From: Chiloscyllium plagiosum
Taxonomy: Eukaryota
Direction of reading: 5' to 3'
DNA length: 64,000 nt
Assembly: GCF_004010195.1 (NCBI RefSeq)
Contig: NC_057757.1
Location: 6,035,980 to 6,099,979, forward strand
The notes under the pieces were generated by a model. It did not search any database, was not told where the DNA came from, and was given only the letters and a program-made list of their open reading frames with translations. Positions 1-62,669 of this stretch are shown here, one piece after another; position 1 is the stretch's first letter, and every line of letters begins with the position of its first letter. The position numbers were made by a program, and so were the translations under genes.

Positions 1-155
1 ACCACCCTCCACCCCAGACACCACACCCACCACCCCAGACACTACACCCACCACCCCAGACACTACACCCACCACTCCAGTCACTACTCCCACCACCCCA
101 GACACTACACCCTCCACCCCAGACACTACAACACCTACCACCGGGACAATCTCAG
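1..155 (+). CDS. Exon 1 in window (5' truncated): Pro/Thr mucin heptad repeats
   Basis: Frame from base 2 reads PPSTPDTTPTTPDTTPTTPDTTPTTPVTTPTTPDTTPSTPDTTTPTTGTIS; 21-bp repeat unit; donor G|GTCAGG at 155/156, phase 1, matching the next exon. Confidence 0.8.
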
Positions 156-875
156 GTCAGGATAATTTATACTTTATCAATTGTGGTCATTACAAAATGA
201 TTAGTGTTTTATGATGGTAATTTTTTTTTTAGTCATTTAAGGTCAGTCATTTGAATGGTCAACAATGTTTAGAACTCTTTTTGCGAACATCACAATACCA
301 TGTAGAAACAACAGAGAGCCATTGACCAGGAGAGATCTCCCTTGTCTGACACATTATCAGCATTTGGCCAAGTCACCATATCCACTGCATCCCTTTCAAG
401 GGCTCAGTGAAATGCCTAGTAATCTGTTTAAATTGGTGGTTCATCATGCTTCAAGGGTGTAATTAAATTCTATGGGAATGGGTGATGGAGAAATGTTAAA
501 GGAATTTTCACTTTTGGTGGTCCCTCAGTGACTAGTTGAAGATTCAGGACAACTAGAGAGAGACTTGGGCCACTGAACGATCAAAGAGATTGTCTTTGCG
601 TTGAATCTCAGGAAATGAGAAAGATATTAAATGAATATTGTGCGTCAGTTTTTACTGTGGAAAACGAAATGGAGGCTGGGGAGCTCAGGGAAATAAAGAT
701 CGATGTTTTGAGAACAGTTGACTTTCAGAAAAGTAAGCGGGGGAGGTCTTAGAAAATATAAAGGTGCTTACATCTCCAGGATCTGATCTCGTGTATTCCA
801 GGACTTTGTGGGAAGTTAGGGAGGAAATTGTTGGGCCTCTTACAGAAATATTTGTATCGTTGCTTTTTAGAAAGA

Positions 876-1186
876 TAGAATCCCGACAATGTGGAAACAG
901 GCCCTTCAGCCCAACAAGTCCATACCAACCCTCCGAAGAGTAACCCACCCAGACCCATTCCCCTACTGTCCTATATTTACCCCTGATCCATGCACCTAAC
1001 CTACACATCCCTGAGCACTGTGGGTAATTTACTGTGGCCAACTCACCCTGACCTGCACGTCTTTGGAGTGTGGGAGGAAACCCACGCAGACACGGGGGAG
1101 AACGTGTAAACTCTACACAGACAGTCACCCGAGACTGGGCCCCTGGCGCTGTGAGGCAGCAGTGCTAACCACTGAGCCACCGTGCC
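876..1186 (-). mobile_element. HE1-type tRNA-derived V-SINE nested in LINE
   Basis: Reverse complement has GGCACGGTGGCTCAGTGGTTAGCAC head, V-domain core and CCTGTTTCCACA tail. Confidence 0.88.
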
Positions 1187-1626
1187 TATTAATACGGGTG
1201 AGGTGCCAAATGACTGGAGAGTGGCTAACGTTGTGCTTTTATATAAGAAGGATGGAAGGAGACATCTGGGAACAATGGACCCGTGACTCTGACTTCAGTC
1301 GTGGGGGTGTTGTTGGACGTGATTCTGAAAAATCGGATTTTGCTGTACATCTCTAGACTCTATATGCTTTCGGAGAGGCAGTGACTGATTAGGGATGGTT
1401 TTGTGCGAGGGAAATCATGTCTCGAAAACTTGATTGAAGTAACCAAGACGATTGATGAGGACAGAGTGGTCGACATTGTCTACTTGGGACTTTAGTAAAG
1501 CCTTTGACGAAGTTCTGCATGGTAGACTAGTTCGATCACATGGGATTCCGAAGATTCAGGCTGGTGGTGGAGGATTGTTTTTCAGACTGGAGGCCTGTGA
1601 CCACGGATTGGTGCTGGGTCCACTTT

Positions 1627-1920
1627 TAGATTAGATTACTTACAGTGTGGAAACAGGCCCTTCGGCCCAACAAGTCCACACCGACCCTCCAAAGAGCAAC
1701 CCTACATTTACCCTTTCACCTAACACTACAGGTGCTTTAGCGCGGCCAATTCACCCTAACCTGCACATCTTTGAAAGTGTGGGAGGAAACGGGAGCACCC
1801 GGAGGAAACCCACGCAGACACGGGGAGAACGTGCAAACTCCACACAGTCAGTCGCCCGAGGCGGGAATTGAACCCGCGTCCCTGGCGCTGTGAGGCAGCA
1901 GTGCTAACCACTGAGCCACC
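1627..1920 (-). mobile_element. HE1-type V-SINE nested in LINE
   Basis: Head, core and (ATCTA)n tail on the minus strand. Confidence 0.88.
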
Positions 1921-2889: not shown

Positions 2890-3003
2890 ATGGCGTTTGT
2901 ATCGTGTCAGGAGATCCTCACTACATAACCTTCGACCAAAGGAAGTTTACCTTCCTGGGGACCTGCACCTACACTCTTGCCAGAAGTTGCGAGAATAAGA
3001 CAG
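2890..3003 (+). CDS. Exon 2: start of VWD1
   Basis: cag|ATGGC...ACAG|gtatgt; [38 protein letters not shown]. Confidence 0.93.
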
Positions 3004-3574
3004 GTATGTGTAAAAGAGAGATAATGATCCTGATACACAACCTCTCTGAGAGGGAGAGCCGAGTTATGTTAAAAAAAGCTTGACCTAAGACGTCTCTCTT
3101 TTCATAGCCATTGGGCCTCTGAGTGGCTGCTGTATTCATCGTGATAATCCTCTCTTGAACAACAGTTCAAGTCTCACTCCTTGAATTCTAAGTCCAAATC
3201 AACACTCCATGTGGCTGTACTGAGTTAGTGCTGCATTGTCAGAGGCCTTTGGATGAAATGTTAATTCCCTCAGGCAGGAGTGAGCAAGGCCGCAGGGGGA
3301 GAAGAGTTTAGGAGTTCTGTCTGGTCTGCTGAGCCAGTGTTCGTCTTCCTTGTTCAACAGCAAAAACAGCAGATCTGGTGGGCTTTGGGATCACAAAAGA
3401 TGCTAAGCAAACATCACACTGTTATTTTTAAAAATAAACACAGTATGTGCTGGAGAAATACAACAGGTTTGGCAGAGAGAGAGAAACAGCATTCACATTT
3501 CCAGCCCACCGTGACTCTGTCTTTGGAACTCTACCCCATTGTTGGCCACGTTTGTATGAGATGTACTCCTTGCA

Positions 3575-4182
3575 CGTGTGTGTGTGTGTGTGCTTGCATT
3601 CAGTGTGTTAATGTGCATATTTCTGTATTTGTGTGAATATTTCATTGCCCTATGCGTGTGTGTATGGTTCTATCAGTGTGCTGTTTGTATCTGTATGTCT
3701 ACCTCTTTATGCACGTGTGTGTATCTTCCTGTCTGTGCATGTCTGTGTAGGTGTATCTATCACTCTGTCTGTCTGTGTATTAGTCCATTTGTGATTGTAT
3801 GTGTATCTCGATGTACATGTGTCTGTCTGTATGTGTGTGTGTGTCAGTGTGCTTATGTTACTGTGTGTCCACCTGTACAGTTTGTCTATGTCAGTATACA
3901 TGTTTGTGTGCCTATATTTCTGCGTGTGAAAAGGTTGTCTCTCATAAACTTTCTCTGTTGATCTCGCTCTCTGTGCACCTTCTCTGATGCCATGTATCTA
4001 TTTGTGTGTCTGTGTGTTTATGTGAGTGTGTGTATGCATGTGTGTGTGTCTGTGTCTGTGAGCATTTGTGTGAGTGTATGTGCGTTTCTGAGTGTGTGTG
4101 TGTGTGTTTGTGAGCATTTCTGTGAGTGTGTGAGTGTGTGTGTGCGTTTGTGTGTCTGTGTGTGTGAGAGAGAGAGAGAGAG
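3575..4182. repeat. Degenerate (TG)n/(AG)n microsatellite tract
   Basis: Seen directly; source of the C/V-rich spurious ORFs. Confidence 0.9.
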
Positions 4183-4246
4183 TTTGTCAGTGCTTATTTG
4201 ACAGTCAATATGCTTCTCTCCTTTAATGTTATTCAATGATTTCCAG

Positions 4247-4371
4247 GACCCTGGTTCAGCATCGAAGGCAAGAATGAGGAGAGGGGATTACCTGGAGCCA
4301 CTTACCTCAGAAAACTTTACATCACCGTTGACGACATCACCATTACTCTGATGAAAAACAGGCGAATCCTG
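4247..4371 (+). CDS. Exon 3: VWD1
   Basis: ttccag|GACCC...CTG|gttagt; GPWFSIEGKNEERGLPGATYLRKLYITVDDITITLMKNRRIL. Confidence 0.93.
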
Positions 4372-5505
4372 GTTAGTCTCCCCACAGTTTCACCAATCAT
4401 TTTGATTGAGAGTTTCACTGAGTTCAGTCAGTCAGAATGACTTTTTTTTTTTCTCTTTATTTATTCATAGGATGGGGGCCTCGCTGGTCAGGCCAGCTTT
4501 TTATTGCCCATCCTTAATTGTTAAGGGTCTTGGGTCTGGAGTCACATGTAGGCCGTAAGGACAGCAGTTTCCTTCCTTAAAGGGCATTAGTGAGCAAGAT
4601 GGGCTTCTCCTGAGCATTGAGTCTTAATTCTTTTTTAACACTTAATTCAAACTTCCACGATGGCAGGATTCGGACTTTGGTCCCCAGAACATCACCTGAG
4701 TCTGTGGATTATCAGTCCAGCATTAATACCACCCGACCATTGCTGCCCCAATGAAAACTGTTAGATTGCAATTAAAACCAATGGCTTCCTCAATGTCATT
4801 CAGGGAGGGATCACTGCTATCCTTACCCAGTCTGGGCTAGGAGCAGGCAGGTGGGTGGGGTTTAGTTTGGGATTAAGGACTGGTTGACCCAAAGGGGTCT
4901 GTTTCTGTGCTGGATGACTGTATTAAATTTAAAATTTGAGAGGTTCATTCTAGAGTCCAGTAACAGCGGGGAAGAAGCTGTTCTTGGTACGTGTGTTTAA
5001 GCTTTCGTATCTTCTGGAAGAGATTATAACCGGGGTGGGAGGAGTCTTTGATGATGCCGGCTGCCTACCTGAGGCAGCGGGATGTACAGGTGGAGTCAGT
5101 CAGCGGGAGGTTGGTTTATGTGATGGACTGGGCTGTGTTCACAACTCTCTCTGCAGTTTCTCACGGTGCTGGGCAGAGCAGATGCCATATCAAGCAGTGA
5201 TGCACCCTGATCGAATGCTTTCTCTGATAGTTAAAGCACTTTAAATGTCAGCTCAGACGCATATCCTCATCAACAGCAATTTGCCCCAATTGCCAAAGGA
5301 GATTCGAAGAAAGGAGAAAACATAGATTCTCCCCTTCTCCCTATCACTGCCAAACTGCGTGTGGCCTCTTTTCTACCTTCCTCTCACCCCTCTGAGTCCT
5401 TTATTGACCAAAGACTATTTGTTTAACTTGCCCTTGACTATCCATGTGACCCAGTCTAGGGCAAAGAATTCTCCACATTTCTTTCCCTCATTACCCATCT
5501 CGCTA

Positions 5506-6794
5506 TCATTGCCCAGACTCAGTTCCTGTATTGATTGGGACAAACCACATGGATTTTCTGATTTCAGATCTCTACTGAAATGGTTCCCTTTGGGAGATGG
5601 ATGGGGGGGGGGGGGGAATTAAATCAGGTTGCGCTACCTAGTCTTCAGAACAAAACCAACCAAATCTTTCCACTGTGGAAACAGGCCTTTCAGCCCATGC
5701 ACTGACAGGCAGCCCATCCTATCCCCATAACCCGGCATTTCCCACCTGACCTGCAGGCTACGGGGACAATGTAGCACGGGCCAATCCATCCTAACCTGCA
5801 CGTCTTTGGACTGTGGGAGGAAACCGGAGCACCCGGAGGAAACCCACGCAGACACGGGGAGAATGTGCAAACCTTCACACAGACAGTCACCCGAGGCTGG
5901 AATCGAACCCTGGTCCCTAGCGTCGTGAGGCAGTCGTGCTAACCACTGAGCCAGCGTACCACCAACAAGCATGGTGTAATTTGAGTCATCAGATTGACCA
6001 AAGAACCAGGCTATGGAGTGGGGTAGCACACACCTTCTACAAAGTCAGCACAGGAGACCAGACAGGAAAATACGGCTGAAGGGCATGCCTATTTATTTTT
6101 AAAGTAATATTAGATTATTCACTACCAACTAGGAATCCAGAGGCAACACTGTTCACAGGGATTTAATTCCAACTTTTCCATTCATTGAAATTAATGCTGC
6201 TAAAGTGGAATTTGAATTCAGAGCATTAGCCTGGGCTGTTAATCCAGGGATATCACCAGTATATTACCCTGTCCACCTGACCTAGAGCTATCCGGTCAAA
6301 ACTGCCATTGCTGGTCTAATTCTACCCACAATACACAGCTACGGAGTTGAAGTTAGATAGTTTGAGTAGCATGGTGGTTCAGTGGTTAGCACTGCTGCCT
6401 TGCAGTGCCAGGGACCTGGGTTCAATTCCCACCTCAGGCGACTGTCTGTGTGGGTTTCCTCCAGGTACTTATGTTTCCTCCCACAGTCCAAAGATGTGCA
6501 GGTTGGGATGGATTGGCCATGCCACATTGTCTCCATAGTCTACAGGTCAGATGGGGAATGCAGGGTTATGGGGATAGGATGGGCTGTGGACTCAATGGGC
6601 TGATAGGCCTGTTTCCACAGTTGAAGAGATTTGGTTGGTTTTGTTCTCCCCAGATTAGGGACTAGGTATCGTAACCTGATTTATCTACCCCCCTCCCATC
6701 CATTTCCCAAAGGGAACCTTTTCACCAGAGGTCCGAAATCAGAAAATCCATATGGTTTGTTCCAATCAATACAGGAACTGAGTCTGGGCAATGA
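5506..6794. repeat. Inverted repeat: arms 5506-~5960 and ~6369-6794, each a SINE plus ~165 bp of shared 3' flank
   Basis: Arms are reverse complements; ORF track shows SLPRLSSCIDW(D/N)KP(H/Y)GFSDF on opposite strands. Confidence 0.88.
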
Positions 6795-7662
6795 AATAAA
6801 GGTGTGTATGTGTGTGGAGTTTGCACATTCTCCCCTTGTGTCTGCGTGGGTTTCCTCCCACAGTCCAAAGATACCCAGATTACGGTGGATTGGTCCTGAT
6901 AAATTGCCCATTGTGTCCAGGGATGTGCAGGATAGGTGGGTTAGCCAATGGGAAATGCAGGGTTACAGGGATAGGGTAGGGGGTTGAGTATTGATGAGAT
7001 GCCCTTCAGAGGGTTGGTATGGGCTGAATGGCCTGCTTCCACACTGTAGGGATTCGATGATCATTTTGGTAGAACTCTAAACAGAATCCATACCTATCGG
7101 ATACAAACCAGTCACAGCCAGGCTCTCTCCCACTTCAGGACAAACATGAGACAGAATCCCTTAAACAAGCCATTTCTCACTGTGACAGAGCAGTTGTATT
7201 TTACAAGTAGTATTTCTGATTAATACAGTGTTCCCATTAATCTGGGAAGCTTATCTCCTTCACAACCAAGCTATTGTTGTGTATCAATTTCAGCCTTGGT
7301 TACCAGGCAGTTACATAGACCATCCATCCCAGTGACAGCCTGATTGAATCAAACAGCCTGCTCACCCAACTGTTCAAAACAACTTGGAAAACATTTGCAA
7401 AAACCCAACACAAAATGTCTACCGTTAGGCGTGATTACATGATTGGGTCGCACTTGCTGAACAATCCCAACTGCGATAATAACCACCCCAGCAAAGCAAT
7501 TTCAGGTAATTACGGGAGCAAGAGTAGGCCATTCAGCCCATCAAGCTTGCTCCACCATTCAATATGATAATTGAATTAGATCCACGGGGAGCACCCTTTA
7601 TTTACATGTAGGGAGGCCTTGATGCTGACCCAGCTCCCTCAGAGCCAGCTCTCAGAGTGAAC

Positions 7663-7868
7663 AGCTGAAAATGTGTTGCTGGAAAAGCGCAGCAGGTCAG
7701 GCAGCATCCAAGGAGCAGGAGAATCGACGTTTCGGTCATGAGCCCTTCTTCAGGAATGATGCCCGAAACGTCGATTCTCCCGCTCCCTGGATGCTGCCTG
7801 ACCTGCTGCGCTTTTCCAGCAACACATTTTCAGCTCTGATCTCCAGCATCTGCAGTCCTCACTTTCTC
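7663..7868. mobile_element. Palindromic Penelope-like fragment (family A) with minimal hammerhead core on - strand
   Basis: Inverted arms; - strand CTGAAGA-agggctcatgacc-GAAACGTC; flanking direct repeat CTCAGAGTGAACAG. Confidence 0.75.
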
Positions 7869-8414
7869 CTCAGAGTGAACAGAACCTCTGGCCCTCCTGT
7901 TTATTTTTTTTTCTATTACCCCGACACTACCACCTAACTGTGGTCATGCTTATTTTTTTCCCCAGCACCCATATTGTGTGTGTGTGTGTGCAGGTGTGAG
8001 ACACAGTGAAAGACACAAGGTGCACGAATCTTTATTCAGTTTCCACCACCAGGAAGAAAAGAAACACTCAAATGGCCAGCAAAATCTGTCCTAGCCCTTG
8101 TGAATTACCCAGAAACTTTCTCCATGGCAACGTCTTGTCTATCACAGTTGATTTGCCAACCAATCAGCACCATTGACCCCTGCAGTATAAACTGTTAAAA
8201 TTATTTGGCATGCTTGCATTTGTCCTGATGTGTGCACGATGATTGATATTCAGCGACGGCTGGGTTCCTTCCAATCAAGGGACGATTGATAAAGTACATC
8301 TGATTTGGTAGCACTGCGACGAGGCGATCCTCTGCAGGCCTTTCAGTCAGGCTTTCTGAGCTCTACCCAAGAGAGGCGAAATATTGATGTCGTGTCTGAT
8401 CCTTGTAATTACAG

Positions 8415-8557
8415 GTGGGCCAAACAAGGGTGAGGCTGCCAAAGCAAGTGGGCAGAGTCCATCTCTCTCAGTCCGGCCAATACGTCATGGTCCAGACAGA
8501 TTTTGGCCTGCAGCTACAATACGACGGGAACCATTTTGTGAAGATAACTGTACCGGG
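8415..8557 (+). CDS. Exon 4: VWD1
   Basis: acag|GTG...CCGGG|gtgagt; VGQTRVRLPKQVGRVHLSQSGQYVMVQTDFGLQLQYDGNHFVKITVP. Confidence 0.92.
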
Positions 8558-9095
8558 GTGAGTCCCATGGCTTTTGAGCTCAAGCGTGCCACTCTTGACC
8601 TCAAAGAAATGCTCATCATCTCTGAGTCCAGAGCGTGAAAGAATGCTCTTCACTTGACTGGATGAGGGCATCTCAATACCATCCAGGGTGAAGCAGCCCG
8701 TTTGACTGGCACCCCATCCAACTCTTCCAGCATTCACTCCCTTCATCAATGATGCTCAGGGGCAGCGGTGTGTACCATCTACAAGGTGCACTGAAAGGTT
8801 CCTGTGGCAGCACCTACCCCCTCCACTGTCAAGGCAGTAGACACATAGGGACACCAGCATCTGCAAGTTCCCCTCCGAGTCACTCCTAAACTGGAAATAT
8901 ATTGGCTGTTCGTCCAGTGTTATTGGGTCAAAATCCTGGAACTGTCTCCCTGTGAGGAGGGGGGGGGTTCCCTACACCACATGGGACTGCAGCAGTTTCA
9001 GATCATCACCACCTTCTCAAGGTTGCAATTAGGGATGGGCTCTTGATCCCAACAGGCCCCAGGTCTATTTGTTAAAGGGTCTCTTTCTCTCCTAG

Positions 9096-9239
9096 CAACT
9101 ATTACCAACAGATGTGCGGATTCTGTGGTGACTTTAACGGTCATTCTGTTGATGATTACCGGATGCCAGATGGGTCCTTGGCGGTGAATGACACCATATT
9201 TGGAGAGAGCTGGAAGACGAAAGATGACGAGGATGAGAG
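9096..9239 (+). CDS. Exon 5: end of VWD1
   Basis: ctag|C...AG|gtaagt; NYYQQMCGFCGDFNGHSVDDYRMPDGSLAVNDTIFGESWKTKDDEDE. Confidence 0.93.
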
Positions 9240-9869
9240 GTAAGTGCTGCTTATGCGCCGCGTTACATCAACCTCTTCACCTCCTGCGCTTAGACTGAGA
9301 CGTGATTATTCAGAGTCTCTCAATGGTCCGATGAGTGAAGACCATGTGATAACAAGCCATAGAGGATGGGTTTGGTTGAAGATGTAGATCTTTAAGCAAT
9401 GCAGCAAAGTGGCCCAGAGACAAGAAAACATCTGTCACGATGTTGAAATGAATGAGGTGGAACGCCATTTTGAACTATACAAGACGAGTCGGTCCACAAT
9501 ACACCATTCGCACAATTCCCTCTGGAGAGGTTTGGGCAGGGAATTCTGGACCAGAAGGCATGGCCACCAATGGTGCAGCGATAGAAATCAGGAACTTGTA
9601 AACCAGCTCTCCTTTCCTCCTCAACTCCTGTGTCGACGCTATTTGCAGGAGATGGAAATGGTTTCAAGATGGCGTCCACTTGTCATCCAAATGGCTCGAG
9701 GTACAGCTCTGAGCCAATCTAAGACCTTTCCACTGGGGTCCACGCTGACTGCATGTCCCCACTGATGCACATTCCCCCCCCCCCCCACATCAACCATGGC
9801 CAATATTTTTGAAGGGATCTCATAGTTATTTCTGGCAAAGACCCATTGAGCCATGTTGCTGTGTTCCAG

Positions 9870-9971
9870 GTGTAAGACTATTGTCCCAGCTCCATGCGAG
9901 AAAGAAATCCTTGACAAAGTGATCAGCGATGACCAGTGTGGACTCATCATTGATGCGACAGGACCGTTCAG
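9870..9971 (+). CDS. Exon 6: linker/C8-1 N-terminal part
   Basis: ccag|G...AG|gtaaga; CKTIVPAPCEKEILDKVISDDQCGLIIDATGPFR. Confidence 0.9.
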
Positions 9972-10124
9972 GTAAGAGAAACAGGTTGCAGCAGTAGGTT
10001 ATTACAGGTAGCGGAAATCGGAAATACAAGCAGAGAATGGTGGAGAAGTGAAGGAGAGGAACACAGTTAACAAGCTAGGTTGGTGCATTGTCTTCAGAAC
10101 TGGGTCAAGGGAAGGCGCGAAGGA

Positions 10125-11285
10125 GAGGGCAAGGATACAACGTTTTGAAAAGAATTCTGAGGGATAGGATTTATGACCATTTGGCAAGGCATAGTGTGAT
10201 TAAAGGCAGTCAGCATGTCTTTGTGAGGGGCAGGTCATGCCTCACAAATCTTATTGAGTTCTTCGAGGAGGTGTCAAGACAGGTCGACAATGGTCGAGCA
10301 GTGGATGTGGTGTATATGGACTTCAGCAAGGCATTTGATAGGGTTCCCCAGGGTAGGCTCATTCATAAAGTCAGGAAATATGGGATACAGGGAGATTTGG
10401 CTATCTGGATTCAGAATTGGCTGGCTGACAGACGGCAGAGAGTGGTTGTAGATGGAATGTATTCTGCCTGGAGGACAGTGTTGAGTGGTGTCCCGCAGGG
10501 CTCTGTTCTTGGGCCNNNNNNNNNNNNNNNNNNNNNNNNNNNNNNNNNNNNNNNNNNNNNNNNNNNNNNNNNNNNNNNNNNNNNNNNNNNNNNNNNNNNN
10601 NNNNNNNNNNNNNNNNNNNNNNNNNNNNNNNNNNNNNNNNNNNNNNNNNNNNNNNNNNNNNNNNNNNNNNNNNNNNNNNNNNNNNNNNNNNNNNNNNNNN
10701 NNNNNNNNNNNNNNNNNNNNNNNNNNNNNNNNNNNNNNNNNNNNNNNNNNNNNNNNNNNNNNNNNNNNNNNNNNNNNNNNNNNNNNNNNNNNNNNNNNNN
10801 NNNNNNNNNNNNNNNNNNNNNNNNNNNNNNNNNNNNNNNNNNNNNNNNNNNNNNNNNNNNNNNNNNNNNNNNNNNNNNNNNNNNNNNNNNNNNNNNNNNN
10901 NNNNNNNNNNNNNNNNNNNNNNNNNNNNNNNNNNNNNNNNNNNNNNNNNNNNNNNNNNNNNNNNNNNNNNNNNNNNNNNNNNNNNNNNNNNNNNNNNNNN
11001 NNNNNNNNNNNNNNNNNNNNNNNNNNNNNNNNNNNNNNNNNNNNNNNNNNNNNNNNNNNNNNNNNNNNNNNNNNNAGAGTTGTGAAGAATGCATGGAATG
11101 TGTTGCCAGTGGTGGTGGAAGCAGAGTCATTGGGGACATTTAAGTGACTGCTGGACATGCATATGGATAGCAGTGAGTTGAGGGGTGTGTAGGTTAAGTT
11201 ACTATATTTTACACTAGGATTAAATCTCGGCACAACATCGTGGGCCAAAGGGCCTGTTCTGTGCTGTACTTTCCTATGTTCTATG
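10125..11285 (+). mobile_element. CR1-clade LINE fragment spanning an assembly gap
   Basis: SQHVFVRGRSCLTNLIEFFEEV...VDVVYMDFSKAFD...SGVPQGSVLG, then a 3' tail after the gap. Confidence 0.92.
10516..11075. other. Assembly gap (N run); other gaps at 22455-22505, 26289-26962, 40549-40550
   Basis: N runs seen directly; exon phases and domain sequence are continuous across all gaps. Confidence 0.98.
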
Positions 11286-11584
11286 ATACATCATGATAAG
11301 GCGGAAGACAGAAGCAGCTCACGTGAATCTGTTATTGCAGTTCAGCCTAAGGCCTAAGCGAGGTGAGTAAAGAAACAAAAGATGTCACTCGAGCCAGTCC
11401 AGATGTCCAGGAGCAAAACAACAGCATAAACCAGGAGGAGGAGGAAGAGGAGGCTCCACAAATATTCCCATCAAGACTGGGGGAGCCGAGCGCCATCAGT
11501 GTGAAAGGCAAAACTGAAACATTTGCAACCACCTGCAGCCAAAGTTCTAAATCAAAATGGGAGTGGGGATGACAGTCTGAAATA

Positions 11585-20750: not shown

Positions 20751-20767
20751 CGTGAACAAAGTGCAGC

Positions 20768-49947: not shown

Positions 49948-50120
49948 ACTTGGAAATAGCAAGGTCCCTCAGAGCACAATGTGCTGCTTGGCCTGTTGAA
50001 TGGTGCCCCCAGGAGATCTCGAGGAACTCTTGTGATTCTTGCGGCAGACAGTTCTAACAGAGTGTGTTGTAAAGGCAGCAGCTGGCCCATCTCTCACTGC
50101 TGTCTGCTTTCACTGTCCAG

Positions 50121-51012: not shown

Positions 51013-51252
51013 GAGTCAAGATTAGAGTGTGGTGCTGGAAAAGCACAGCAGGTCAGGCAGCATCCGAGGAGCAGGAGAATCGATGTTTCGGGCAAAAGCC
51101 CTTCATCAGGAATTCCTGATTCCTGATGAAGGGCTTTTGCCCGAAACATCGATTCTCCTGCTCCTCGGGTGCTGCCTGACCTGCTGTGCTTTTCCAGCAC
51201 CACACTCTAATCTTGACTCTAATCTCCAGCATCTGCACTACCCACTTTCGCC
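51013..51252. mobile_element. Family A palindrome with back-to-back hammerhead-like cores
   Basis: - strand core 51081-51110 and + strand core 51123-51150; flanking TGTGTTTTGAG repeat. Confidence 0.75.
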
Positions 51253-51319
51253 AAGCATGTGTTTTGAGCCAATGAGGTCCTTTCACGTTTGGAGAATAAG
51301 CCCATCCTGTGCAGTTATG

Positions 51320-52445: not shown

Positions 52446-52762
52446 CCCATCCAACTCGATTACATGAATGACAGTGGAGCCAGCAGATGTTCAGGTCAGG
52501 GTGAATTGACCACGCTAAATTGCCCAGAGTGTTAGGTGCATTGGTCAGAGGGAAATGGGTCTGGGTGGGTTACTCTTCGGAGGGTCGGTGTGGACTTGTT
52601 GGGCTGAAGGGCCTGTTTCCACACTGTAGGGAATCTAAACCACTGGTCCAGTCCGGCAATCAACCTTCCGTCACGGTCGGGGCTGTTGTGGTTTTAAACG
52701 AGGAGAGAGCCTGACTCGCTTTTAACGTTTTCTGATGTGTGTGTGTGTCTGTTTTTACACAG

Positions 52763-52904
52763 TCGGGCGATACCTGGCTGAACAAGCACTGTGACACAAA
52801 GTGTACCTGCAAGAAAGGACACCTACGCTGCAAGAAACACAAGTGTGTGGAGAACTCAGTGTGTGCCTTGAAGAAGAACGGAAAATACAAGTGTACACCG
52901 GTCG
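52763..52904 (+). CDS. Exon 22: TILa-3 (Lys-rich)
   Basis: acag|TCG...GTCG|gtaagt; SGDTWLNKHCDTKCTCKKGHLRCKKHKCVENSVCALKKNGKYKCTPV. Confidence 0.93.
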
Positions 52905-53134
52905 GTAAGTCACCGTCGCACTCTCTCCCAAACCCTCCCCCCCCGCCATCCTCCTCACTTTCTTGCTCAGCTCCCTGCTGACATGGGTCAAACATTGAAC
53001 CTCAGTGACAGGACTGCACTGCACAACACTCACACTGTGATCAGTGTTTGGTTCAAAGCCACTTTGAAGTCAGGATACTATTAAAGAAGTAGGATGTCCA
53101 CTGACACAACACCCTCTCTCGCTCGGGTGAAATT

Positions 53135-53437
53135 TTAGATTCCCTACAGTGTGGAAACAGGCCCTTCGGCCCAACCAGTCCACACCGACCCTCCAAAGAG
53201 CAACCCACCCAGATCCATCTCCCTCTGACTAACGCACCTAACACTATGGGGCAATTTAGCATGGCCAATCCACCCTAACCTGCACATCTTTGGACTGTGG
53301 GTGGAAACCGGAGCAAACCCACACAGACACGGGGAGAACTTGCAAACTCCACACAGACAGTCACCCGAGGCTGGAATCGAACCTGGGACCCTGGTGCTAT
53401 GAGGCAGCAGTGCTAACCACTGAGTCACTATGCCGCC
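53135..53437 (-). mobile_element. HE1-type V-SINE
   Basis: Full head, core and tail on the minus strand. Confidence 0.88.
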
Positions 53438-55393
53438 CCTAAAGGGGGTTAAAATAAAGGGGGTTAGAGGCTGAAAATCACTGCAGCAACTCATCATGCC
53501 TCCACCTTCCAAACCAGTGACATCTATTACAGAGCAGACCCCATCGAGATATTTTAAGAAGGTAGCCTAGACCCTAATCTTTTCTTATTTTAAGAGCAAA
53601 TGTGAAGCACCGTGCTCCAGATGCAATTCAATGGGTTAGTCAACGTTAAGAAGAGATTTACCAAGATGGAAGGTTTGAGTTAGAAGGAGAAGCTGGATAA
53701 GGGTGGGACTGTTTCCACTAGAACGTCAGAGGTTGAGAGGCGATCTGCTAGAAGTTTATAAAATAATGAGGGGTATAGATAAAGTTAACAGTAGGTGTCT
53801 TTTCCCTGGGGTGGGGGATTTCAAGACAAGGGGCACATTTTTTAAGGTGAGAGGCAAAAGATATTTTTTTATGTGAGTATTATGTATCTGGAATGAACTT
53901 CCTGAGGAAGTGGTGGCTGTAGGTATAATTGCAATGTTTAAAAGACACTTGGATAAGTACATGAATAGGAAAGGTCTGGAGGGATATGGGTCAGGAGCAG
54001 GCAGGTAGTTTGGAATTATGTTCAGCATGGATTGGGTGGACTGAAAGGTCTGTTTCCTTGCTGTATGGTTCTATGACTGTAGTTAAAATACAACCAAAGA
54101 AAGAGAAGTCTATAATAACTTAAATCCATTGGAAAACTTAACTGAATAATAGATTCAGTACCTATTACTAATTAACTGTTGCAATACAGTAACATTCCAT
54201 AAACACACCCCTTGGCAAAAAGGAAAATTGAGATACATGCAATTCTCCAATCCAGGAGGGAAAGAAAATATCAAGAGAAAATTCAGAGAGAGGAACAGCT
54301 AGGAGACATTCGCTGAAGCTCCTAACTCTTTTGAGACCCCACTAGCTACTGAGAAACCAAAACCTGATTTGTGAGAGCTGGCCACATCCCATTCAGGCTG
54401 TATTAAACAAAAAAACCAAGGCCTCCCAAGCTGTTTACCCCAGTACCTCAGCCTTAAAATCTCTCAACAAAAAAAGGATGAAATAATGTCTTAAGATGGC
54501 TGCACTGACTGACTCAGACTGACAAGGGCAGCAGATGCATAGGAACACCATGGGGCCACCATTTGGCATTTTGCAGAATACAATTCACTATGTAAAGAAA
54601 TTCTCCCTGTCTTGCCCTTTTACCAATCTCTTCTTGCCACTCTTTCACATGGCAACCGTTGCCAAGGCCAACCTGTCCCTAATTGCTGGGGACATTTCAA
54701 AGGACAATTAAGAGTCAACTCCATTGGTTTGCATCTGGAGTCACATGTAGTCCTCATCCTGTTGTAGATTTCCCTTCACTAAAGAGACGATGATGTATCA
54801 ACCAACATGACAATAGTTTTGCTGTCTCCGTCAATGAGACAAGTTTTATATTTCCACATTTACAACTGCGTTTAGATTCCACCAGCTGCCGTGGTGGGAC
54901 TTGAACCCCTCTCTGTAAAATATTAGCCTGGGACTCCAGATTCCTAGCCCACTGACATTACTACCTAACCAAGAGATGGACGCTACCAAGTCAAAAGATT
55001 GTAGGTGGGAACAAAGCACAAAGAACAAAGCATTACTGCCTCACAGCACCAGGGACCTCAGGTGACTGACTGTGTGGTGTTTGTACATTCTCCCTGTATC
55101 TGTGAGGGTTTCCTCCCACAGTCCAAAGATGTGCTGGTTAGATGGATTGGCCATGGGAAATGCAGGGATAGGGCAGGATGGAGCACCTGGGTGGGTTGGT
55201 CTTCAGAAGGACTGTGTGGATTTGATGGGCTGAATGGCCTGCTTCCGCACTGTAGGGATTCTCTAAATGACTGGAACTCCTCAATTTACTCTGTCAGAAC
55301 CTTCATGATTTTGAACACGCTCCCCTAACAATCTCAGTTCCTCTTCAGTTAAATAACGATGGTCGTAATTCTAATCTGTTTGCCTCTGACCAG

Positions 55394-55641
55394 CTTTCGA
55401 GACGTGCCTGATCTCGGGCGACCCTCACTATCTGACCTTCGATGGCCTCGCCCACCACTTCCAAGGCAAGGGCACTTACACCCTGGTCACCACCCACAAC
55501 ATTTCCGAGGCCCTGCAGCCGTTCAACATCGAAGGCAAGAATGAAGTGAGGAACAGGAACACAAAGGTCTCCTACCTGTCTGCAGTTTACATCAACGTTT
55601 ACGGCCACTCCATCGAATTCCACAAGAAGAAACGTTTCTTG
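55394..55641 (+). CDS. Exon 23: start of VWD4
   Basis: ccag|CT...TTG|gtgagg; FETCLISGDPHYLTFDGLAHHFQGKGTYTLVTTHNISEALQPFNIEGKNE...HKKKRFL. Confidence 0.93.
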
Positions 55642-56089
55642 GTGAGGGCATCTTTTTACTATTTCTCTGGCGTAGGAACATGATGCCATTTGGCCCATCG
55701 AGCCTGTACTAGCATTCATTATGATCAAGGCTGATCGAACACTCCAATCCCTTTTACCCACCACATCCCCATAACCCTGTGCAACTGGTAATCATAAATC
55801 TATTGACCTCTACCTCAAAAATACCCACAGACTGAATTTCCAGTGATACAGAATTCCAAAGATTTCTCCTCATCTTGAACGTAAGTGGCATTCCCCTTAT
55901 TTTGTAAAACTGTACTCCCTGGTTCCAAACTCCCCAGCCACGGGATAGTCCTTATCTGCATCTTGCTGTTTAATTGTTTTAGAAGTTTCAATGGGCGCTC
56001 ACCTCCGACTCTTCAAAACTCTAGAGAGTACAGGACAATGTTTTTTTATAGGACTGATCCACCATCCCTGGGAACACGTTTGGTCGCAG

Positions 56090-56775
56090 AGTCATCGAGT
56101 CATACAGCACGGAAACAGACCCTTCAGTCCTGCTTGTCCATGCCGACCAGATATCCCAACCTAATCTAGTCCCATTTGCCAGCACTTGACCCATATCCCT
56201 CTAAACCCCTCCTATTCATATACCCATCCAGATGCCTTTTAAATGTTGCAATTGTACCACCACTTCCTCTGGCAGCTCATTCCATACACGCACCACCCTC
56301 TGCGTGAAAAAGCTGCCCCTCAGGTCCCTTTTAAATCATTCCCCTCTTACATTAAACCCTGCCCTCTAGTTATGGACTCCCCTATTCTGGGGTAAAAAAG
56401 ATCTTGGCTATCCGTGCTCTTCATGATTTTATAAGGTCACCCCTCAGCCTTCGACACTCCAGGGAAAACAGCCCCAGCCTGTTCAGCCTCTCCCTATAGC
56501 TCAAACCCTCCAATCCTGGCAACATCCTTGTAAATCTTTTCTGGGCTCTTTTAAGTTTAACAACTTCCTTCCTACAGCAGGGAGACCAGAATTGCACGCA
56601 ATATTTCGAAAGTGGTCTAACCAATGTCCTGTACAGCCACAACATGAACCCCACCCCCCCCCAACTCCTCTATCCAATGCACTGACCAATAAAGGAAAGC
56701 ATACCACACGCCTTCTTCACTATCCTGTCTACCTGTGACCCTCGCCTTCAAGGAACTCCATACCTGCACCCCAGA
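56090..56775 (-). mobile_element. CR1 LINE 3' fragment
   Basis: LYRTLVRPLSKYCVQFWSP...QKRFTRMLPGLEGLSYRERLNRLGLFSLECRRLRGDLI. Confidence 0.9.
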
Positions 56776-57239
56776 ACTCCATCATGAACCTTCACTACAA
56801 TCTCTTGACGGCAATAATATCTCTCCTGACACCAAAGGAGACCAAAACTGCATACAGGTGTGGTCCAACCAAACTGCTGTACCGTGGTATCATAATGTTA
56901 TATTGCATTAGCAGCTCTCTGTGGAGAACTTTGCTGAAGGTAGGCCAATCACAACAGATAATGATGTGGAGGTGCCAGGGTTGGTCTGGGGTGGACAAAG
57001 TCAGAAGTCACATGACCCCAGGTTATAGTCCAACGGGTTTATATGAAATCACAAGTTTTCAGAATGCTGCTCCTTCATCACTTATGACTCTATAAGGTGT
57101 AATCATGGAGACAATCATTAGGTTGCAGGATGGAAAGAAATGGCTATGTGGGATCAGTTAAACAGACTCGTTGGATGTTTGTTTCCAAAATACTATCCTG
57201 TCTTATTATTATTAAGTGGACAATTATATGGTAACACAG

Positions 57240-57545
57240 AGGCTCAGTGGTTAGCACTTCTGCCTCACAGCACCAGGGTCCCAGGTTCGATTCCAGCCTC
57301 GGGTGACTGTCTGTGTGGAGTTTCACATTCTCCCCGAGTCTGCTTGGGTTTCCTCTGGGTGCACTGGTTTCCTCCCACAGTCCAAGGATGTGTGGGTCAG
57401 GAGAATTGGCCGTGCTAAATTGCCCTAAGTGTTAGGTGCATTAGTCAGAGGGAAATGGGTCTGGGTAAGTTACTCTTCGGAGGGTCAGTGTGGACTGGTT
57501 GGGCCAAAGGACCTGTTTCCACACTGTAGGGAATCTAATCTAATA
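57240..57545 (+). mobile_element. HE1-type V-SINE
   Basis: A/B boxes, V core, (ATCTA)n tail. Confidence 0.88.
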
Positions 57546-57839
57546 ACATTTTGAATCTTCATAGATGCAGGTACTGGCTAGGCCTGCATTGACTGTCCAT
57601 CCCTAAATTCCAACTGTTCAAGTGAGTAATCTATGATGGTTAAAAGACCAGGAAGTTTAATAGCACAGACATTTGATTTCTGGTTTCTCTGGTGATCTTG
57701 GACTGTTCAGTCAGGTCTCAGTTCTCAATCCAACCAAGGCTTCGGCCTTAGCTCTGCTGCCCTGGTATTTCCAGTCAGGTTGTTTTCTCACTCTGGCTGC
57801 GTTTTGGAATAAACCTCTTCACTTTCCTTTTTGACACAG

Positions 57840-57969
57840 TTGGATGATGAAAGGGTGATCCCACCTTACAAGTCGCGCGAAGGTTTCCATGTCTACCAGA
57901 GAGCCAGGACCCTCTACCTGGAGACGGACTTTGGCGTCTCAGTCAACTTTGACGGGAGAGAAAATGCAG
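57840..57969 (+). CDS. Exon 24: VWD4
   Basis: acag|TTG...GCAG|gtgagg; LDDERVIPPYKSREGFHVYQRARTLYLETDFGVSVNFDGRENA. Confidence 0.93.
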
Positions 57970-59107
57970 GTGAGGGAGCTTTTCAAAATGGCCACTGCGG
58001 CGGAATCCAGCTGGTGTAGTGTGGCCTATCATGTACTGGTGTGGTGGACCAAAGGGAGCCTGATTTTTTTCTTCAACCAGTGAAATTGTGGGTTCAAAAC
58101 CCACCATGGCCAGATATGGAATTGTTTCCAACAACCCTAGAGCAAGCTGATAGTTGTTGAACTGCTATTTTGTTTATTTGAATCCCCAGTTGAACCCATC
58201 TCCTCACGACCAACTCCTGAAGTGACCCAGCCCAATTGAAAACCCAGGAGGAGAAAGCAGTAAAACTGGCGAATGACTTATGGTGATCTGACCAGCTTCG
58301 AAGTGGGGGTCTAGTTCAACCAGTACATTTATTTCCCACTACTGCTGTTGTCTAAACATTATTTATCTCCTCTGGGGAAGTCCTGATACATTTTCCCCAA
58401 GATAAATAAGTGAGAGAGAAAATACCTTGGGAATTTTACAGATAGTGATACTAACCTGTGGCCAAGTCACTGTCTGGATCTCAAATATTGAAATGCTCTT
58501 GCAAAATGTAAGATGGGGACATGTGTCCGGTGCTGGTGGGACAGCACTGTGGGGTCAACGTATCCGAACAGCATCCTGCCCAGCCAGCTCCCTATCCTAT
58601 CCCTGTAATCTAGCACTTCTCACAGCTAACCCACCTGCCTTGCACATTCCTGGGCACTACGGGGTAATTTACTAATGCCAATCCACCTAATGTGAACATG
58701 CAATCATAGAGATGTACAGCACAGACACAGACCCTTGGTCCAACTCCCCCATGCCGACCAGATATCCTAACCTAATCGAGTCCCATTTGCCAGCACTTGG
58801 TCCATATCCCTCTAAACCCTTCCTATTCATATACCCATCCAGATGCCTTTTAAATGTTGTAACTGTACCAGCCTCCACCACTTCCTCTGGCAGCTCATTC
58901 CCTACATCTTTGGACTGTGGGAGGAATCCGGAGCACCCTGGAGGAAACCCACGCAGACACGGGGAGAACATGCAAGCTCCACATAGACGGTTGCCCAAGG
59001 GTGGGATCGAACTTGGCGCTGTAAGGCCTTAATACCCTGGCAATAATACTCGCATCTCTTCGACAAATGTATGCCCTGCCTCATCCAACCCTTTTATCTT
59101 CCTCCAG

Positions 59108-59369
59108 ATATTATTATCCCGAGCCTGTACAAGAGAAAGGTCCGAGGGCTGTGTGGCACATACGACGGTAGGTACAGGAATGACTTTACATTGCCCGACG
59201 GAACACGTGTTTCCAGTCTGAATGTGTTCGGGAACAGCTGGAAGGTAGAGGATAGGGACGATGATGACTACGACTGGGAGGGAGATGACGATGACGACGA
59301 CAATGAGGATGACAACGAAGATAGCCGGATGAGACAGAAGCCGCAGGAATCCAACAGGCAGAGGTACAG
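59108..59369 (+). CDS. Exon 25: end of VWD4 + acidic insert
   Basis: ccag|AT...AG|gtgagt; DIIIPSLYKRKVRGLCGTYDG...FGNSWKVEDRDDDDYDWEGDDDDDDNEDDNEDSRMRQKPQESNRQRYR. Confidence 0.9.
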
Positions 59370-59680
59370 GTGAGTAGGAGCGAAGGTGAAACATCAGATT
59401 CAGGGCTCCGGTAAGTTTGGTAAGTGCGCAGGGAAGAGAGATTTGCGCTCATCTTGAGACTTTTCACAACCTCAGCACCTCCTGAAGAGACTCACGACCA
59501 ATTAAGTCCCATTGTGACGTCGGAAATTCAGCCTCATGTTGTTGCACAACAAGATCCCACAAGCGGCATCAGTGATGATAGTGGTGGCGAGAGCAGAAAC
59601 TCATCTGGTTCACTCAGGCCCATTGGGGAATCCCTACTGGCCTGGCCTGCATGTGACTGTACACCCGAGGCACCAACGGC

Positions 59681-60290
59681 AGGGCGGCACGGTGGCTCAA
59701 TGTTTGGAGCTACTGCATCACCGTGCCAGGGACCTGGGTTCGATCCCACCCTTGGGTGACTGTGTGGAGTTTGCACATTCTCCCCGTGTCTGTGTGGGTT
59801 TCCTCCAGGTGCTCCGGTTTCCTCCCACAGTCCAAAGATGTGTAAGTCAGGTGAATTGGCCATGTTAAATTGCCCACTGTGTCCAGGGATGTGTAGGTTA
59901 TGGTGAATTGGCCATGTTAAATTGCCCACAGTGTTCAGGGATGTATAGGTTAGGGTGAATTGGCCGTGCTAAATTACCCATAGTGTTCAGGGATGTATAG
60001 GTTAGGGTGAATTGGCCATGGTAAATTGCCCATAGTGTTTAGGGATGTGTGGGTTAGGGGTGATTTGGCCATGGTAAATTGCCCATATAGTTTAGGGATG
60101 TGTGGGTTAGGGGTGATTTGGCCATGCTAAATTGCCCATAGTGCTCAGAGATGTGTGGGTTAGGTGCATTAGTCAGACGTAAATGTAGAGTAATAAGATA
60201 GGGGTAATGGATCTGGGTGGGTTACTATTCGGTGGGTCAGTGTAGACTTGTTAGGCCAAATGGCCTGTTTCCACACTATAGGGAATCCAT
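59681..60290 (+). mobile_element. HE1-type SINE with ~6 internal 52-53-bp repeats
   Basis: Recurring TTGGCCATG.TAAATTGCCCA units. Confidence 0.87.
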
Positions 60291-61651
60291 CAGTCCAATG
60301 TGGTTGACTCTTAACTGCCATCTAAAATGGCTGAACATACCAGTCAGTGCAAGAGTAATTAGGGATGGGAACTAAATGTTGGCCATTGCCAGTGATGCCC
60401 ACATTCCAAGAAAGGATAAAGAAAACAAAAAATTAGGTCTTTTAACTAAATGTTTGTCATGGACACCAGTGAAAATAATCTGGTTCCTTTTAGAAGATAT
60501 TACAGTCAACCAAGTAGACTGTGGTTTTTATTTTGTTCATTCACAGGATAAGGGTCTCACTGGCTAGGCCCAGCATTTATTGCCCATCCCTAATTGCCTA
60601 GAGGGTAGTTAAGGGTGGGCCTAGAGTCATGTGTAGGCCAAACCAGATAAGATAGCAGTTTCCTTCCCTAAAGGATATCAGTAAACCAGATGGGTTTTTC
60701 CAACAACGGATACATGGTCATCATTAGACTCTTAATTCCAGATTTGCTTTTTTTATTGAATTCAAGTTCCACCATCTTCTGTGGCTGGATTCAACCTTGG
60801 ATCCCCAGAATATTACCTGGGTCTCTGGATTAACAATACCATTAGGCCATCACTCCCCTTGGGTGTCTCAAGTTGTGCTTCCCTATCTACAGTCTGAGTT
60901 GAGAGTGAGGGGAGCACCACCATCTTTCTGTAGTGTCACCATGACACACTGGGTTTCACCCTTTCTGAGTCAAAATGTTGTGATCCAATTTCCATTCCAA
61001 AAGCTTGAGGTCAAAATCCACGGTTGGCATTCCCAGAGGGTTATGAAATAGTGTCAGAGATGCTACCTTTGCGATCTGCCTCCAACAGTGTGTGTGAAAG
61101 AATCTGTAGCACTCTTTTGAAGACAAATGGGGGTATGATTTGGAGAGGGAACATCTCCCCGACATCACGACCAGTACTTATCTTGTGATCAGCGTTGCCA
61201 GAAGAGACGATCTGGCCACAATTATGTGGTAAAGCCTTGGCTGGATCAATCAGAGTCAACCCCACCTGATTTAAACATAAACAAAGCTCGGCAGTTAACT
61301 GTCAGTCATCGTCTAATTGGGTTCATTCTCCCTGGCAGTGCCTCAACTGATCAAAGTCCAGTTGCTACCACAGTTAGGCAGTAGTGTGGGGGTAAAAACA
61401 TAAACTAGAAAGAGAAAAAAAAGAAAAAAAAAATTTAAAAAAAGGAAAAAAAATCAAAGTCCAGTTGCCAACTAATCCTCACTGTCTTTGCATGCAGTAT
61501 GAACGTGTTGCCCCTCCCCTCTTATGTTGGTATTCTTGCGAATTATCCTGACCAAGAAACTTCAACAACATGTGTCTTTTACTAGCAATAGGGTTGGTAT
61601 GGACTTGTTGGGCCAAATGGCCTGTTTCCACACTGTAGGGAATCTAATCTT

Positions 61652-61965
61652 GGGGCGGCGTGGTGGCTCAGTGCTTAGCACTGCTGCCTCACAGCACCAG
61701 GGACCTGGGTTCAATTCCAGCCTCGGGCGACTGTCTGTGTGGAGTTTGCACATTCTCCCCGTGTCTGTGTGGGTTTCCTCTGGTTTCCTCCCACAGTCCA
61801 AAGATGTGCAGGTTAGGGTGAATTGGCCATGCTAAATTGCCCATAGTGTTAGATGCATTAGTCAGACGGAAATGGGTCTGGGTGGGTTACTCTTCGGAGG
61901 GTCGGTATGGACTGGTTGGGCCGAAGGGCCTGTTTCCACACTGGAGGGAATCTAATCTAATCTAT
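61652..61965 (+). mobile_element. HE1-type V-SINE
   Basis: Full-length head, core and tail. Confidence 0.88.
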
Positions 61966-62495
61966 AGAGTCTGGGATTCCTGAGGTTATGACAGGTGCCT
62001 TCAAGTTATTTGAGTAAACCGTTTGATTAATCTTTTGCCTACAGTTACTCCTAGCAACTTTGCTTTTTTTAATTCACTTTAAGAATGTGGGTGTCGCTGG
62101 CTGTTCCAGCATTAATTGCCTATCCCTAACAGCCTCTGAGAAGCGTGGTAATGGGCTGCATTTCTACAAGCGAACACACTTGTGAGACAGTTTTTTTGTC
62201 AACTGAAGCCTGATCATTTTAACCCTCAATTTTAACAATTGATACAAAATTGTCAAAGCTCTCATCCAACTTGAGTGTGCTGTTAAGGGGAAAGCAGGGA
62301 GGGAGGTGCCATTGGTGAGATTTTTAAAGAACCAGCAACAGGCACATTGGACCAGACGTCCAGCCTCTGTGCGTGTACAACTGTGAGATATCAGGGTCTC
62401 TTCCAGCCTGCTGTAGGGTGTAAGCTGCCAGGCTGAAGGTAGTCTGTCCTTCATTGTGGGATCTTTCTTTCAGTTGCAATTTCTGTGTGTTACAG

Positions 62496-62669
62496 GCGTG
62501 AACTCGTCGGCGAGGACACTGGTCCCGAGCCAGAGACAGGTTTTACAGCAGCGTGTAGCCCTGACCAGCTGGCTGTGATGAACAGCACGGCTTACTGCTG
62601 GGCGATTGCAGACCCTCAGGGGCCATTCCGAGACTGCCATCACAATGTTGATCCGGAGCAATATTACCA
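62496..62669 (+). CDS. Exon 26: linker/C8-4 N-terminal part (gene continues beyond window)
   Basis: acag|G...CA|gtaagc; RELVGEDTGPEPETGFTAACSPDQLAVMNSTAYCWAIADPQGPFRDCHHNVDPEQYY. Confidence 0.9.

What the first reader, a model, noticed from the sequence alone, without database searches (positions are those of the whole stretch)
1..62669. A shark gene that matches zonadhesin D1-D4 domain by domain
Seen: an intact 26-exon frame encoding mucin plus four VWD assemblies. Recalled knowledge: each unit resembles the corresponding mammalian ZAN unit (D1 SWKTKDDEDERC and DMCQFQG; D3 LEIKLPNTYFGKVCGMCGNFN; D4 QGKGTY, FDGRENA, CSPDQL). Mammalian ZAN is a sperm acrosomal protein that binds the zona pellucida. 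Inference: this is a chondrichthyan ZAN orthologue or co-orthologue showing the pre-mammalian state of the gene, with unknown (mucosal or gamete) function.
Basis: partly seen in the sequence, partly recalled or inferred. Interest (0 to 1): 0.7.

Follow-up and report, generated by a model that had tools for sequence, protein, structure and literature searches.

The report
Sharks' second, older zonadhesin-family gene
This is an intact shark gene of the zonadhesin family, already annotated as zonadhesin-like, but it is likely an old side copy kept in sharks and rays rather than the true counterpart of the mammalian sperm protein, and it likely makes a membrane-anchored, mucin-like surface protein whose tissue is untested.

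Summary
Observation confirmed. There are 26 exons, 25 of 25 introns are GT-AG, and the 1469-aa frame has no stop. It matches RefSeq Chiloscyllium plagiosum 'zonadhesin-like, partial' at 1445/1445. Each VWD assembly falls in the ZAN D1, D2, D3 or D4 clade (100/99), not with FCGBP or TECTA. MAM domains lie upstream in relatives; EGF and a transmembrane helix lie downstream.

Orthology is the weak part. Sharks have another gene (NCBI 'zonadhesin, like', with a partial D0 and extra Dx units) that groups with bony-vertebrate ZanL/ZAN (99/99). A shark-only duplication is rejected on MAM1+MAM2+D3+D4 (AU p=0.0006; 0.0012 with a mixture model). D2 points the other way and shows signs of gene conversion. 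So this is probably a third jawed-vertebrate paralogue, found here only in elasmobranchs, and not the pre-mammalian template. A contig from a related organism fits an exon 17-18 splice; tissue is unknown. A basic motif in the D4 linker, with no bridging cysteine, predicts ectodomain release. Synteny and OTOG were not tested. Modest interest.

The parts
2..62669 (+). Zonadhesin-family gene, 26 exons in the window, open at both ends
   Evidence: Exons 2-155, 2890-3003, 4247-4371, 8415-8557, 9096-9239, 9870-9971, 13780-13949, 15742-15941, 17511-17652, 18831-19078, 20027-20204, 22745-22853, 27189-27274, 30058-30234, 32364-32566, 34709-34853, 36896-37137, 40330-40494, 44918-45045, 49215-49483, 50121-50329, 52763-52904, 55394-55641, 57840-57969, 59108-59369, 62496-62669; identical to P0002 over 1445 aa
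2..155 (+). End of the PTS mucin exon, spliced straight to D1 with no D0
   Evidence: 21-bp repeat x6.1; no D0-like or Dx-like hit in intron 1; same mucin-to-D1 junction in Mobula and Stegostoma models
2892..18835 (+). D1 assembly (VWD-C8-TIL-TILa), GDPH at 2910-2921
   Evidence: In the ZAN D1 clade, 100/99
18836..36900 (+). D2 assembly, GDPH at 18854-18865; the unit with conversion signal
   Evidence: ZAN D2 clade, 100/99; nests with shark zanl
36901..55398 (+). D3 assembly, GDPH at 36919-36930
   Evidence: ZAN D3 clade, 100/99; GDPH absent at this position in 5 of 5 eutherian ZANs shown
55399..62667 (+). D4 assembly (VWD, linker, start of C8), GDPH at 55417-55428
   Evidence: ZAN D4 clade, 100/99; continues past the window in P0002
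59257..59322 (+). Acidic run in the D4 linker, seen in the six window-type genes listed
59356..62499 (+). Basic RQRYRR motif across the exon 25/26 junction; predicted furin-type cleavage site
   Evidence: R-x-x-R or H-K/R-R in 30 of 36 D4 linkers; D4 VWD has only 2 Cys in 34 of 34 jawed-vertebrate rows
35215..35359 (+). Exact second copy of exon 16 inside a 508-bp, 98% identical tandem duplication
   Evidence: 145 nt, so using both copies would shift the frame

Best explanation
This intact gene encodes a zonadhesin-family protein (mucin stalk, D1-D4; MAM domains in relatives, EGF and a transmembrane helix past the window) that is likely an out-paralogue of ZAN, split off before sharks and bony vertebrates diverged, and likely works as a membrane-tethered mucin-like coat on an epithelial surface such as gut. 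Shown: exon structure, domain order, ZAN-clade membership of each unit, a second shark gene closer to ZAN. Inferred steps: (1) a duplication in the jawed-vertebrate stem gave the ZAN/zanl line and this line; the ZLG ('MAM-FCGBP-like') family is a third line. (2) This copy was kept in sharks and rays, lacks D0 and Dx, and has exchanged D2 sequence with zanl by gene conversion. (3) Each VWD would self-cleave at GDPH and stay disulfide-tethered, as shown for FCGBP. (4) A furin-type cut in the D4 linker, which no cysteine bridges, would free or loosen the MAM-mucin-D1-D3-VWD4 ectodomain from the membrane stub. (5) A mucosal site is borrowed from zebrafish zan and salmon zlg, which are expressed in gut and not testis.
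For: Unit tree of 84 units from 18 proteins. D3+D4 rooted on lamprey: shark zanl + bony ZanL/ZAN 99/99, window type outside. Species-tree-constrained AU: the shark-duplicate tree is worse in MAM1 (p=0.097), MAM2 (0.048), D1 (0.117), D3 (0.112), D4 (0.0055); concatenated p=0.0006, 0.0012 under LG+C20. Distances: window to horn shark zanl 60/66/63/51%, to coelacanth ZanL 59/59/61/50%; horn shark to coelacanth 70/65/64/59%. Pristiophorus, Carcharodon and Cetorhinus hold both genes. NCBI names the other gene 'zonadhesin, like' in Callorhinchus, Heterodontus and Pristiophorus. Lamniform zanl D2 VWD is 84-88% identical to lamniform window-type D2 and groups with the window type, 100/99. GDPH and the bridging disulfide: PMC10880436 passages; Cys pattern. 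Gut expression in teleosts: PMC1325057 abstract and results. A contig in run X2 covers exon 17 and its depth matches exon 18 (predicted 2.08/0.97, seen 2.11/0.97).
Against: D2 prefers the shark-duplicate tree (out-paralogue p=0.035), and adding D2 weakens the rejection to p=0.044. Free-tree tests do not reject a shark duplicate for D3 (p=0.15) or D3+D4 with lamprey (p=0.074). The window type has a long stem, and the D1 tree puts ray-finned fish outside shark+coelacanth, so pull towards the root is in play. Hypotheses were named after trees were seen, and lamniform zanl was left out. Absence from bony vertebrates rests on capped hit lists. There are no tissue data; unlike teleosts, sharks have internal fertilisation and acrosome-bearing sperm (recalled). 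A review passage places D4 within pig p105, which does not confirm a D4-linker cut.
Confidence: 0.6

Rival explanations
1. Co-orthologue: a duplicate of shark zanl made in the chondrichthyan or elasmobranch stem that lost D0/Dx and evolved fast, so trees pull it to the root.
For: D2 nests in shark zanl (100/99; best tree). Carcharodon holds both genes on a sequence of the same length with near accession numbers. No Callorhinchus or bony-vertebrate copy was seen. D3 and D3+D4 free-tree tests do not reject it.
Against: Rejected for D4 (p=0.014, 0.028, 0.0055) and for the concatenation under two models. D1 and D4 are no closer to shark zanl than to coelacanth ZanL.
Confidence: 0.22
2. Sister or chimera of the ZLG ('MAM-FCGBP-like') family: the D4 end, perhaps the whole gene, comes from the ZLG line, with D2 overwritten by zanl.
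For: Unrooted D4 joins window type and ZLG at 100/99; 97/85 in the unit tree; MAM1 groups with ZLG MAM1 at 89/71; not rejected (p=0.10, 0.20, 0.24).
Against: Rooted on lamprey, D4 is a three-way split and D3+D4 puts the window type with ZAN at 95/92. ZLG genes have MAM-DDD triplets and no D1.
Confidence: 0.13
3. Whatever its ancestry, the protein acts in shark sperm or the reproductive tract, not in mucosa.
For: Same D1-D4 module set that binds the zona in mammals. Roberts 2022 could not exclude a sperm role for non-teleost ZanL.
Against: The fish family members tested in Hunt 2005 are expressed in gut and not testis. All four GDPH sites are kept, as in FCGBP.
Confidence: 0.15

Closest known systems
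Eutherian zonadhesin (ZAN)
   Same: MAM-mucin-D1-D4-EGF-TM order; each unit in the matching clade; 39-49% identity per unit to elephant ZAN
   Different: No partial D0; 2-4 MAMs as pairs; GDPH kept in D3; likely not the 1:1 orthologue; no sperm data
Non-mammalian ZanL / zanl (Hunt 2005; Roberts 2022), including shark 'zonadhesin, like'
   Same: MAM pair, mucin, D1-D4, EGF, TM; 50-66% identity per unit to horn shark and coelacanth
   Different: zanl has a partial D0 and 1-5 Dx units; it groups with ZAN while this gene does not, except in D2
ZLG / chicken 'FCGBP-like' MAM-VWD family (Hunt 2005)
   Same: Ends in D2-D3-D4-EGF-TM; D4 and MAM1 lean towards it
   Different: Repeated MAM-DDD triplets, no D1; it has its own shark and ray members
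FCGBP
   Same: Tandem GDPH-bearing D assemblies; closest solved structures (8rde, 8r0t)
   Different: Separate unit clades; IgGFc_binding N-domain; no transmembrane helix
Alpha-tectorin (TECTA)
   Same: Four VWD units
   Different: NIDO and ZP domains; units outside the ZAN clades

Membership tests
Zonadhesin family (broad) | VWD units cluster with ZAN D1-D4 in order | tested here: met
   Four clades at 100/99
Zonadhesin family (broad) | MAM, mucin, tandem VWD in that order | tested here: met
   Mucin and VWD in the window; MAMs upstream in 5 full-length relatives; a signal-peptide+MAM model two accessions away in the same species (XP_043539578.1). MAM exons are not in the window.
Zonadhesin family (broad) | C-terminal EGF, transmembrane helix, short tail | tested here: met
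   In P0002 beyond the window
Authentic Zan (Roberts 2022) | [quoted passage not shown] | not testable with these tools
   No genome held; no neighbouring gene in the window
Authentic Zan (Roberts 2022) | Partial D0 before D1 | tested here: not met
   No D0-like hit in intron 1; none in 5 full-length relatives
Authentic Zan | Sperm acrosome expression and zona binding | not testable with these tools
   Runs carry no tissue label
ZanL/zanl orthogroup | Groups with shark zanl inside the ZAN species tree | tested here: not met
   Rejected on the concatenation; met for D2 only
ZLG / MAM-FCGBP-like | MAM-DDD triplet repeats, no D1 | tested here: not met
ZLG / MAM-FCGBP-like | D3-D4 sister to ZLG | tested here: inconclusive
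FCGBP | IgGFc_binding domain, secreted, FCGBP unit clades | tested here: not met
TECTA | NIDO and ZP domains, TECTA unit clades | tested here: not met
   (2 TECTA proteins)
OTOG | AbfB domain, otogelin unit clades | not tested
   No otogelin was identified among the proteins fetched; Pfam shows no AbfB in P0002

The most novel reading that the evidence does not exclude
The jawed-vertebrate ancestor had three zonadhesin-family genes. Sharks and rays alone kept the third, beside the true ZAN orthologue, and the two still swap their D2 domain by gene conversion. A conserved furin-type site in D4, present from lamprey to placental mammals, sheds the adhesive ectodomain. If this shark copy is testis-expressed, it would be an independent recruitment of a zonadhesin to fertilisation.
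Probability: 0.12. Interest if true: 0.7.

Novelty: new member of a known kind. Interest (0 to 1): 0.38.

Why it matters
Published accounts of how ZAN became a sperm protein (Hunt 2005; Roberts 2022) treat non-mammalian 'zonadhesin-like' genes as one line plus ZLG, and my term searches found no shark in the Roberts paper. Taking this gene as the ancestral state would use the wrong copy. The better outgroup is shark zanl, which suggests eutherian ZAN lost a full Dx unit and the D3 GDPH site. The predicted D4 cleavage site is a testable idea for the whole family. The gene is already in RefSeq and the family is known, so the gain is a correction of family history, not a new system.

Tried and rejected
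No whole genome is held, so synteny and a zanl copy in this species could not be checked. Run search: no RNA holder listed. Single-cell run X7 showed no reads on exons 17-18 in about 2% of the run read; this is no evidence either way. X3 behaves as DNA (intron-spanning contigs). The exon 17-18 joint was not among the 15 joints printed (164 hidden), so the splice is inferred from contig ends and depth; X1 fits one of two bins. FCGBP and TECTA identity rejected. 'Sister to ZLG' looked firm unrooted but fell apart when rooted on lamprey. The free-tree D1 rejection (p=0.003) shrank to p=0.117 under species-tree constraints; the ZLG-sister row for D1 is not meaningful because those rows were D3 outgroups. 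The minus-strand PTS-like array at 45842-46309 has stops in all three frames. Ten paper searches listed nothing on shark zonadhesin paralogues or a furin site in ZAN; most were seen as listings only. Earlier scan findings: none. No structure prediction was run.
Full report
1. Observation. Paralogous exon matches among + strand frames and splice-site reading gave a 26-exon model from 2 to 62669: 4409 nt, 1469 aa, no stop, 25 of 25 introns GT-AG. A search with exon 17 returned RefSeq Chiloscyllium plagiosum 'zonadhesin-like, partial' (P0002, XP_043539580.1), identical to my model over 1445 of 1445 residues. It has 4 VWD, 4 C8, 4 TIL, 4 TILa and EGF domains and a C-terminal hydrophobic helix. The gene is real, intact within the window and already annotated.

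2. Ends of the gene. No MAM exon lies in the window. Five full-length relatives of the same type (C. punctatum, Hemiscyllium, Stegostoma, Pristiophorus, Mobula) have 2 or 4 MAM domains before D1; Stegostoma and Mobula show the PTS stalk running straight into D1. A 278-aa signal-peptide+MAM model in C. plagiosum lies on a sequence of the same length, two accessions away, and is 87% identical to the C. punctatum N-terminus. It is probably the split-off front of this gene (inference). No partial D0 or extra unit lies in intron 1.

3. Family test. References came from three homologue searches (28 of 40 candidates; best 120 of 1939; best 120 of 1038) and one representative search (best 150 of 6050). 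Pfam on 21 of those 150 found two TECTA proteins (skate named alpha-tectorin). In a tree of 84 units from 18 proteins, window units 1-4 fall in four clades with eutherian D1-D4, each 100/99. The 18 FCGBP units and 6 of 8 TECTA units form a separate 98/96 group; the two partial TECTA fourth units lie apart. OTOG was not sampled. The quoted motifs are the shark's own sequences and mostly match ZLG proteins about as well as ZAN.

4. Orthology. Three gene types appear in cartilaginous fish. (a) zanl: MAM pair, mucin, partial D0, one or more Dx units, D1-D4, as in gar, reedfish, teleosts, turtle and echidna. (b) ZLG / 'MAM-FCGBP-like': MAM-DDD triplets ending in D2-D4. (c) The window type. Pristiophorus, Carcharodon and Cetorhinus hold both (a) and (c). 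My coelacanth ZanL (XP_014346149.1) is the accession in Roberts 2022's supplementary table. On D3+D4 rooted on lamprey zonadhesin-like proteins, shark zanl joins bony ZanL/ZAN at 99/99 and the window type is outside. With species relationships fixed, a shark-only duplication scores worse in MAM1, MAM2, D1, D3 and D4 (p=0.097, 0.048, 0.117, 0.112, 0.0055). It is rejected on MAM1+MAM2+D3+D4 (p=0.0006; p=0.0012 under LG+C20 with parameters fitted on the rival tree). Window D1 and D4 are as far from horn shark zanl (60, 51%) as from coelacanth (59, 50%), while those two share 70 and 59%. Of 167 proteins with a D4-like unit among 374 held, 8 matched the window type best, all elasmobranch; the lists are capped, so loss in bony vertebrates is not shown.

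5. Results against. D2 prefers the shark-duplicate tree (p=0.035 against my reading), and including D2 weakens the rejection to p=0.044. Free-tree tests on D3 (p=0.15) and D3+D4 (p=0.074) do not reject it. Lamniform zanl was left out, hypotheses were set after trees were seen, and the window type has a long stem. Whether it is sister to ZAN or to ZLG is open.

6. D2 exchange. The D2 VWD of great white and basking shark zanl is 84-88% identical to their window-type D2 and groups with all eight window-type rows at 100/99, away from horn shark and sawshark zanl. The two great white genes share a serine-rich insert there and lie on a sequence of the same length. This reads as gene conversion from the window-type gene into zanl in lamniforms, with a weaker older signal in D2 (inference; gene-model errors are not excluded).

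7. Mechanism. All four units keep GDPH; the five eutherian ZANs shown lack it in D3, and echidna keeps it. In FCGBP, GDPH self-cleaves and the pieces stay disulfide-linked, and C4097-C4255 bridges the VWD to the linker behind it (PMC10880436, passages). C4097 is 17 residues after the GDPH Asp. That position is Cys in D1-D3 here (C53, C434, C816 of P0002), with linker Cys at 204, 587 and 969; D4 has neither. D4 VWD has only 2 Cys in 34 of 34 jawed-vertebrate rows. Its linker carries R-x-x-R or H-K/R-R in 30 of 36 proteins, against 1 of 30, 0 of 34 and 3 of 33 in D1-D3 (45-residue windows there, so lengths differ). A furin-type cut (consensus recalled) would leave no covalent tie to the membrane stub. 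This is a prediction. Zebrafish zan and salmon zlg are expressed in gut, not testis (PMC1325057, abstract and results parts 2-3), so a mucosal coat role is the likeliest, by analogy only.

8. Expression. Laying four runs on 36800-40500: in X2 (RNA by guess, another organism) a 356-nt contig covers exon 17 at 96% and stops at its 3' edge; its remaining 93 nt predict depths of 2.08 and 0.97 on exon 18, against 2.11 and 0.97 seen. X1 fits one of two bins. The joint itself was not printed. Tissue is unknown.

9. Literature. Roberts 2022 (PMC9275260; passages and a term search of 4 supplements) has no hit for shark, chondrichth- or cartilaginous in the main text, and none for shark, Callorhinchus, Chiloscyllium or Rhincodon in the supplements. 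Lang 2016 (PMC4948705, passages) filtered zonadhesins out. PMC4492047 was seen as passages. Ten searches listed no paper on shark paralogues; subscription papers and bioRxiv supplements are not covered.

10. Verdict. A real, annotated zonadhesin-family gene; likely an old paralogue rather than the ZAN orthologue; function inferred. New member of a known kind, interest 0.38.

Noticed in passing
window 34619-35632: 508-bp tandem duplication (98%) holding an exact second copy of exon 16 with intact splice sites; using both copies would shift the frame. Real or an assembly artefact is unknown.
   Followed up: partly
P0164 (Geotrypetes seraphini): A caecilian gene has the full zanl layout and groups with ZanL/ZAN, against Roberts 2022's proposed loss in amphibians. 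Synteny not checked.
   Followed up: partly
P0190, P0116, P0022, P0043, P0248: Frog, finch, python, Microcaecilia and newt proteins named 'zonadhesin' belong to the ZLG family by their last units.
   Followed up: partly
P0375, P0317: Lamprey zonadhesin-like proteins have D3- and D4-type units, EGF, a transmembrane helix and the basic D4 linker motif; the Lampetra model also has a MAM domain.
   Followed up: partly
P0191 (Sigmodon): The ZAN model carries Pfam PF00758 (recalled as the EPO family), which fits ZAN lying next to EPO.
   Followed up: no
P0096 and P0083 (Pelodiscus): Zonadhesin and an FCGBP-like gene are listed on contigs of the same length, 25,597,082.
   Followed up: no
window 45842-46309, - strand: Degenerate 30-bp array that reads like a PTS mucin repeat but has stops in all three frames.
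   Followed up: partly
window 47802-48162 and 49648-49946: Two arrays of the same 36-bp unit flank exon 20 and give open frames of 196 and 116 aa.
   Followed up: no
window 44247-44669: 16-bp tandem array, 26 copies.
   Followed up: no
window 10079-10516: Reverse-transcriptase-like fragment (LINE class recalled) running into an N gap; other gaps at 22455, 26289 and 40548.
   Followed up: no
window 30055-30057: Exon 14 uses an AAG acceptor, the only one of 25 that is not CAG or TAG.
   Followed up: no
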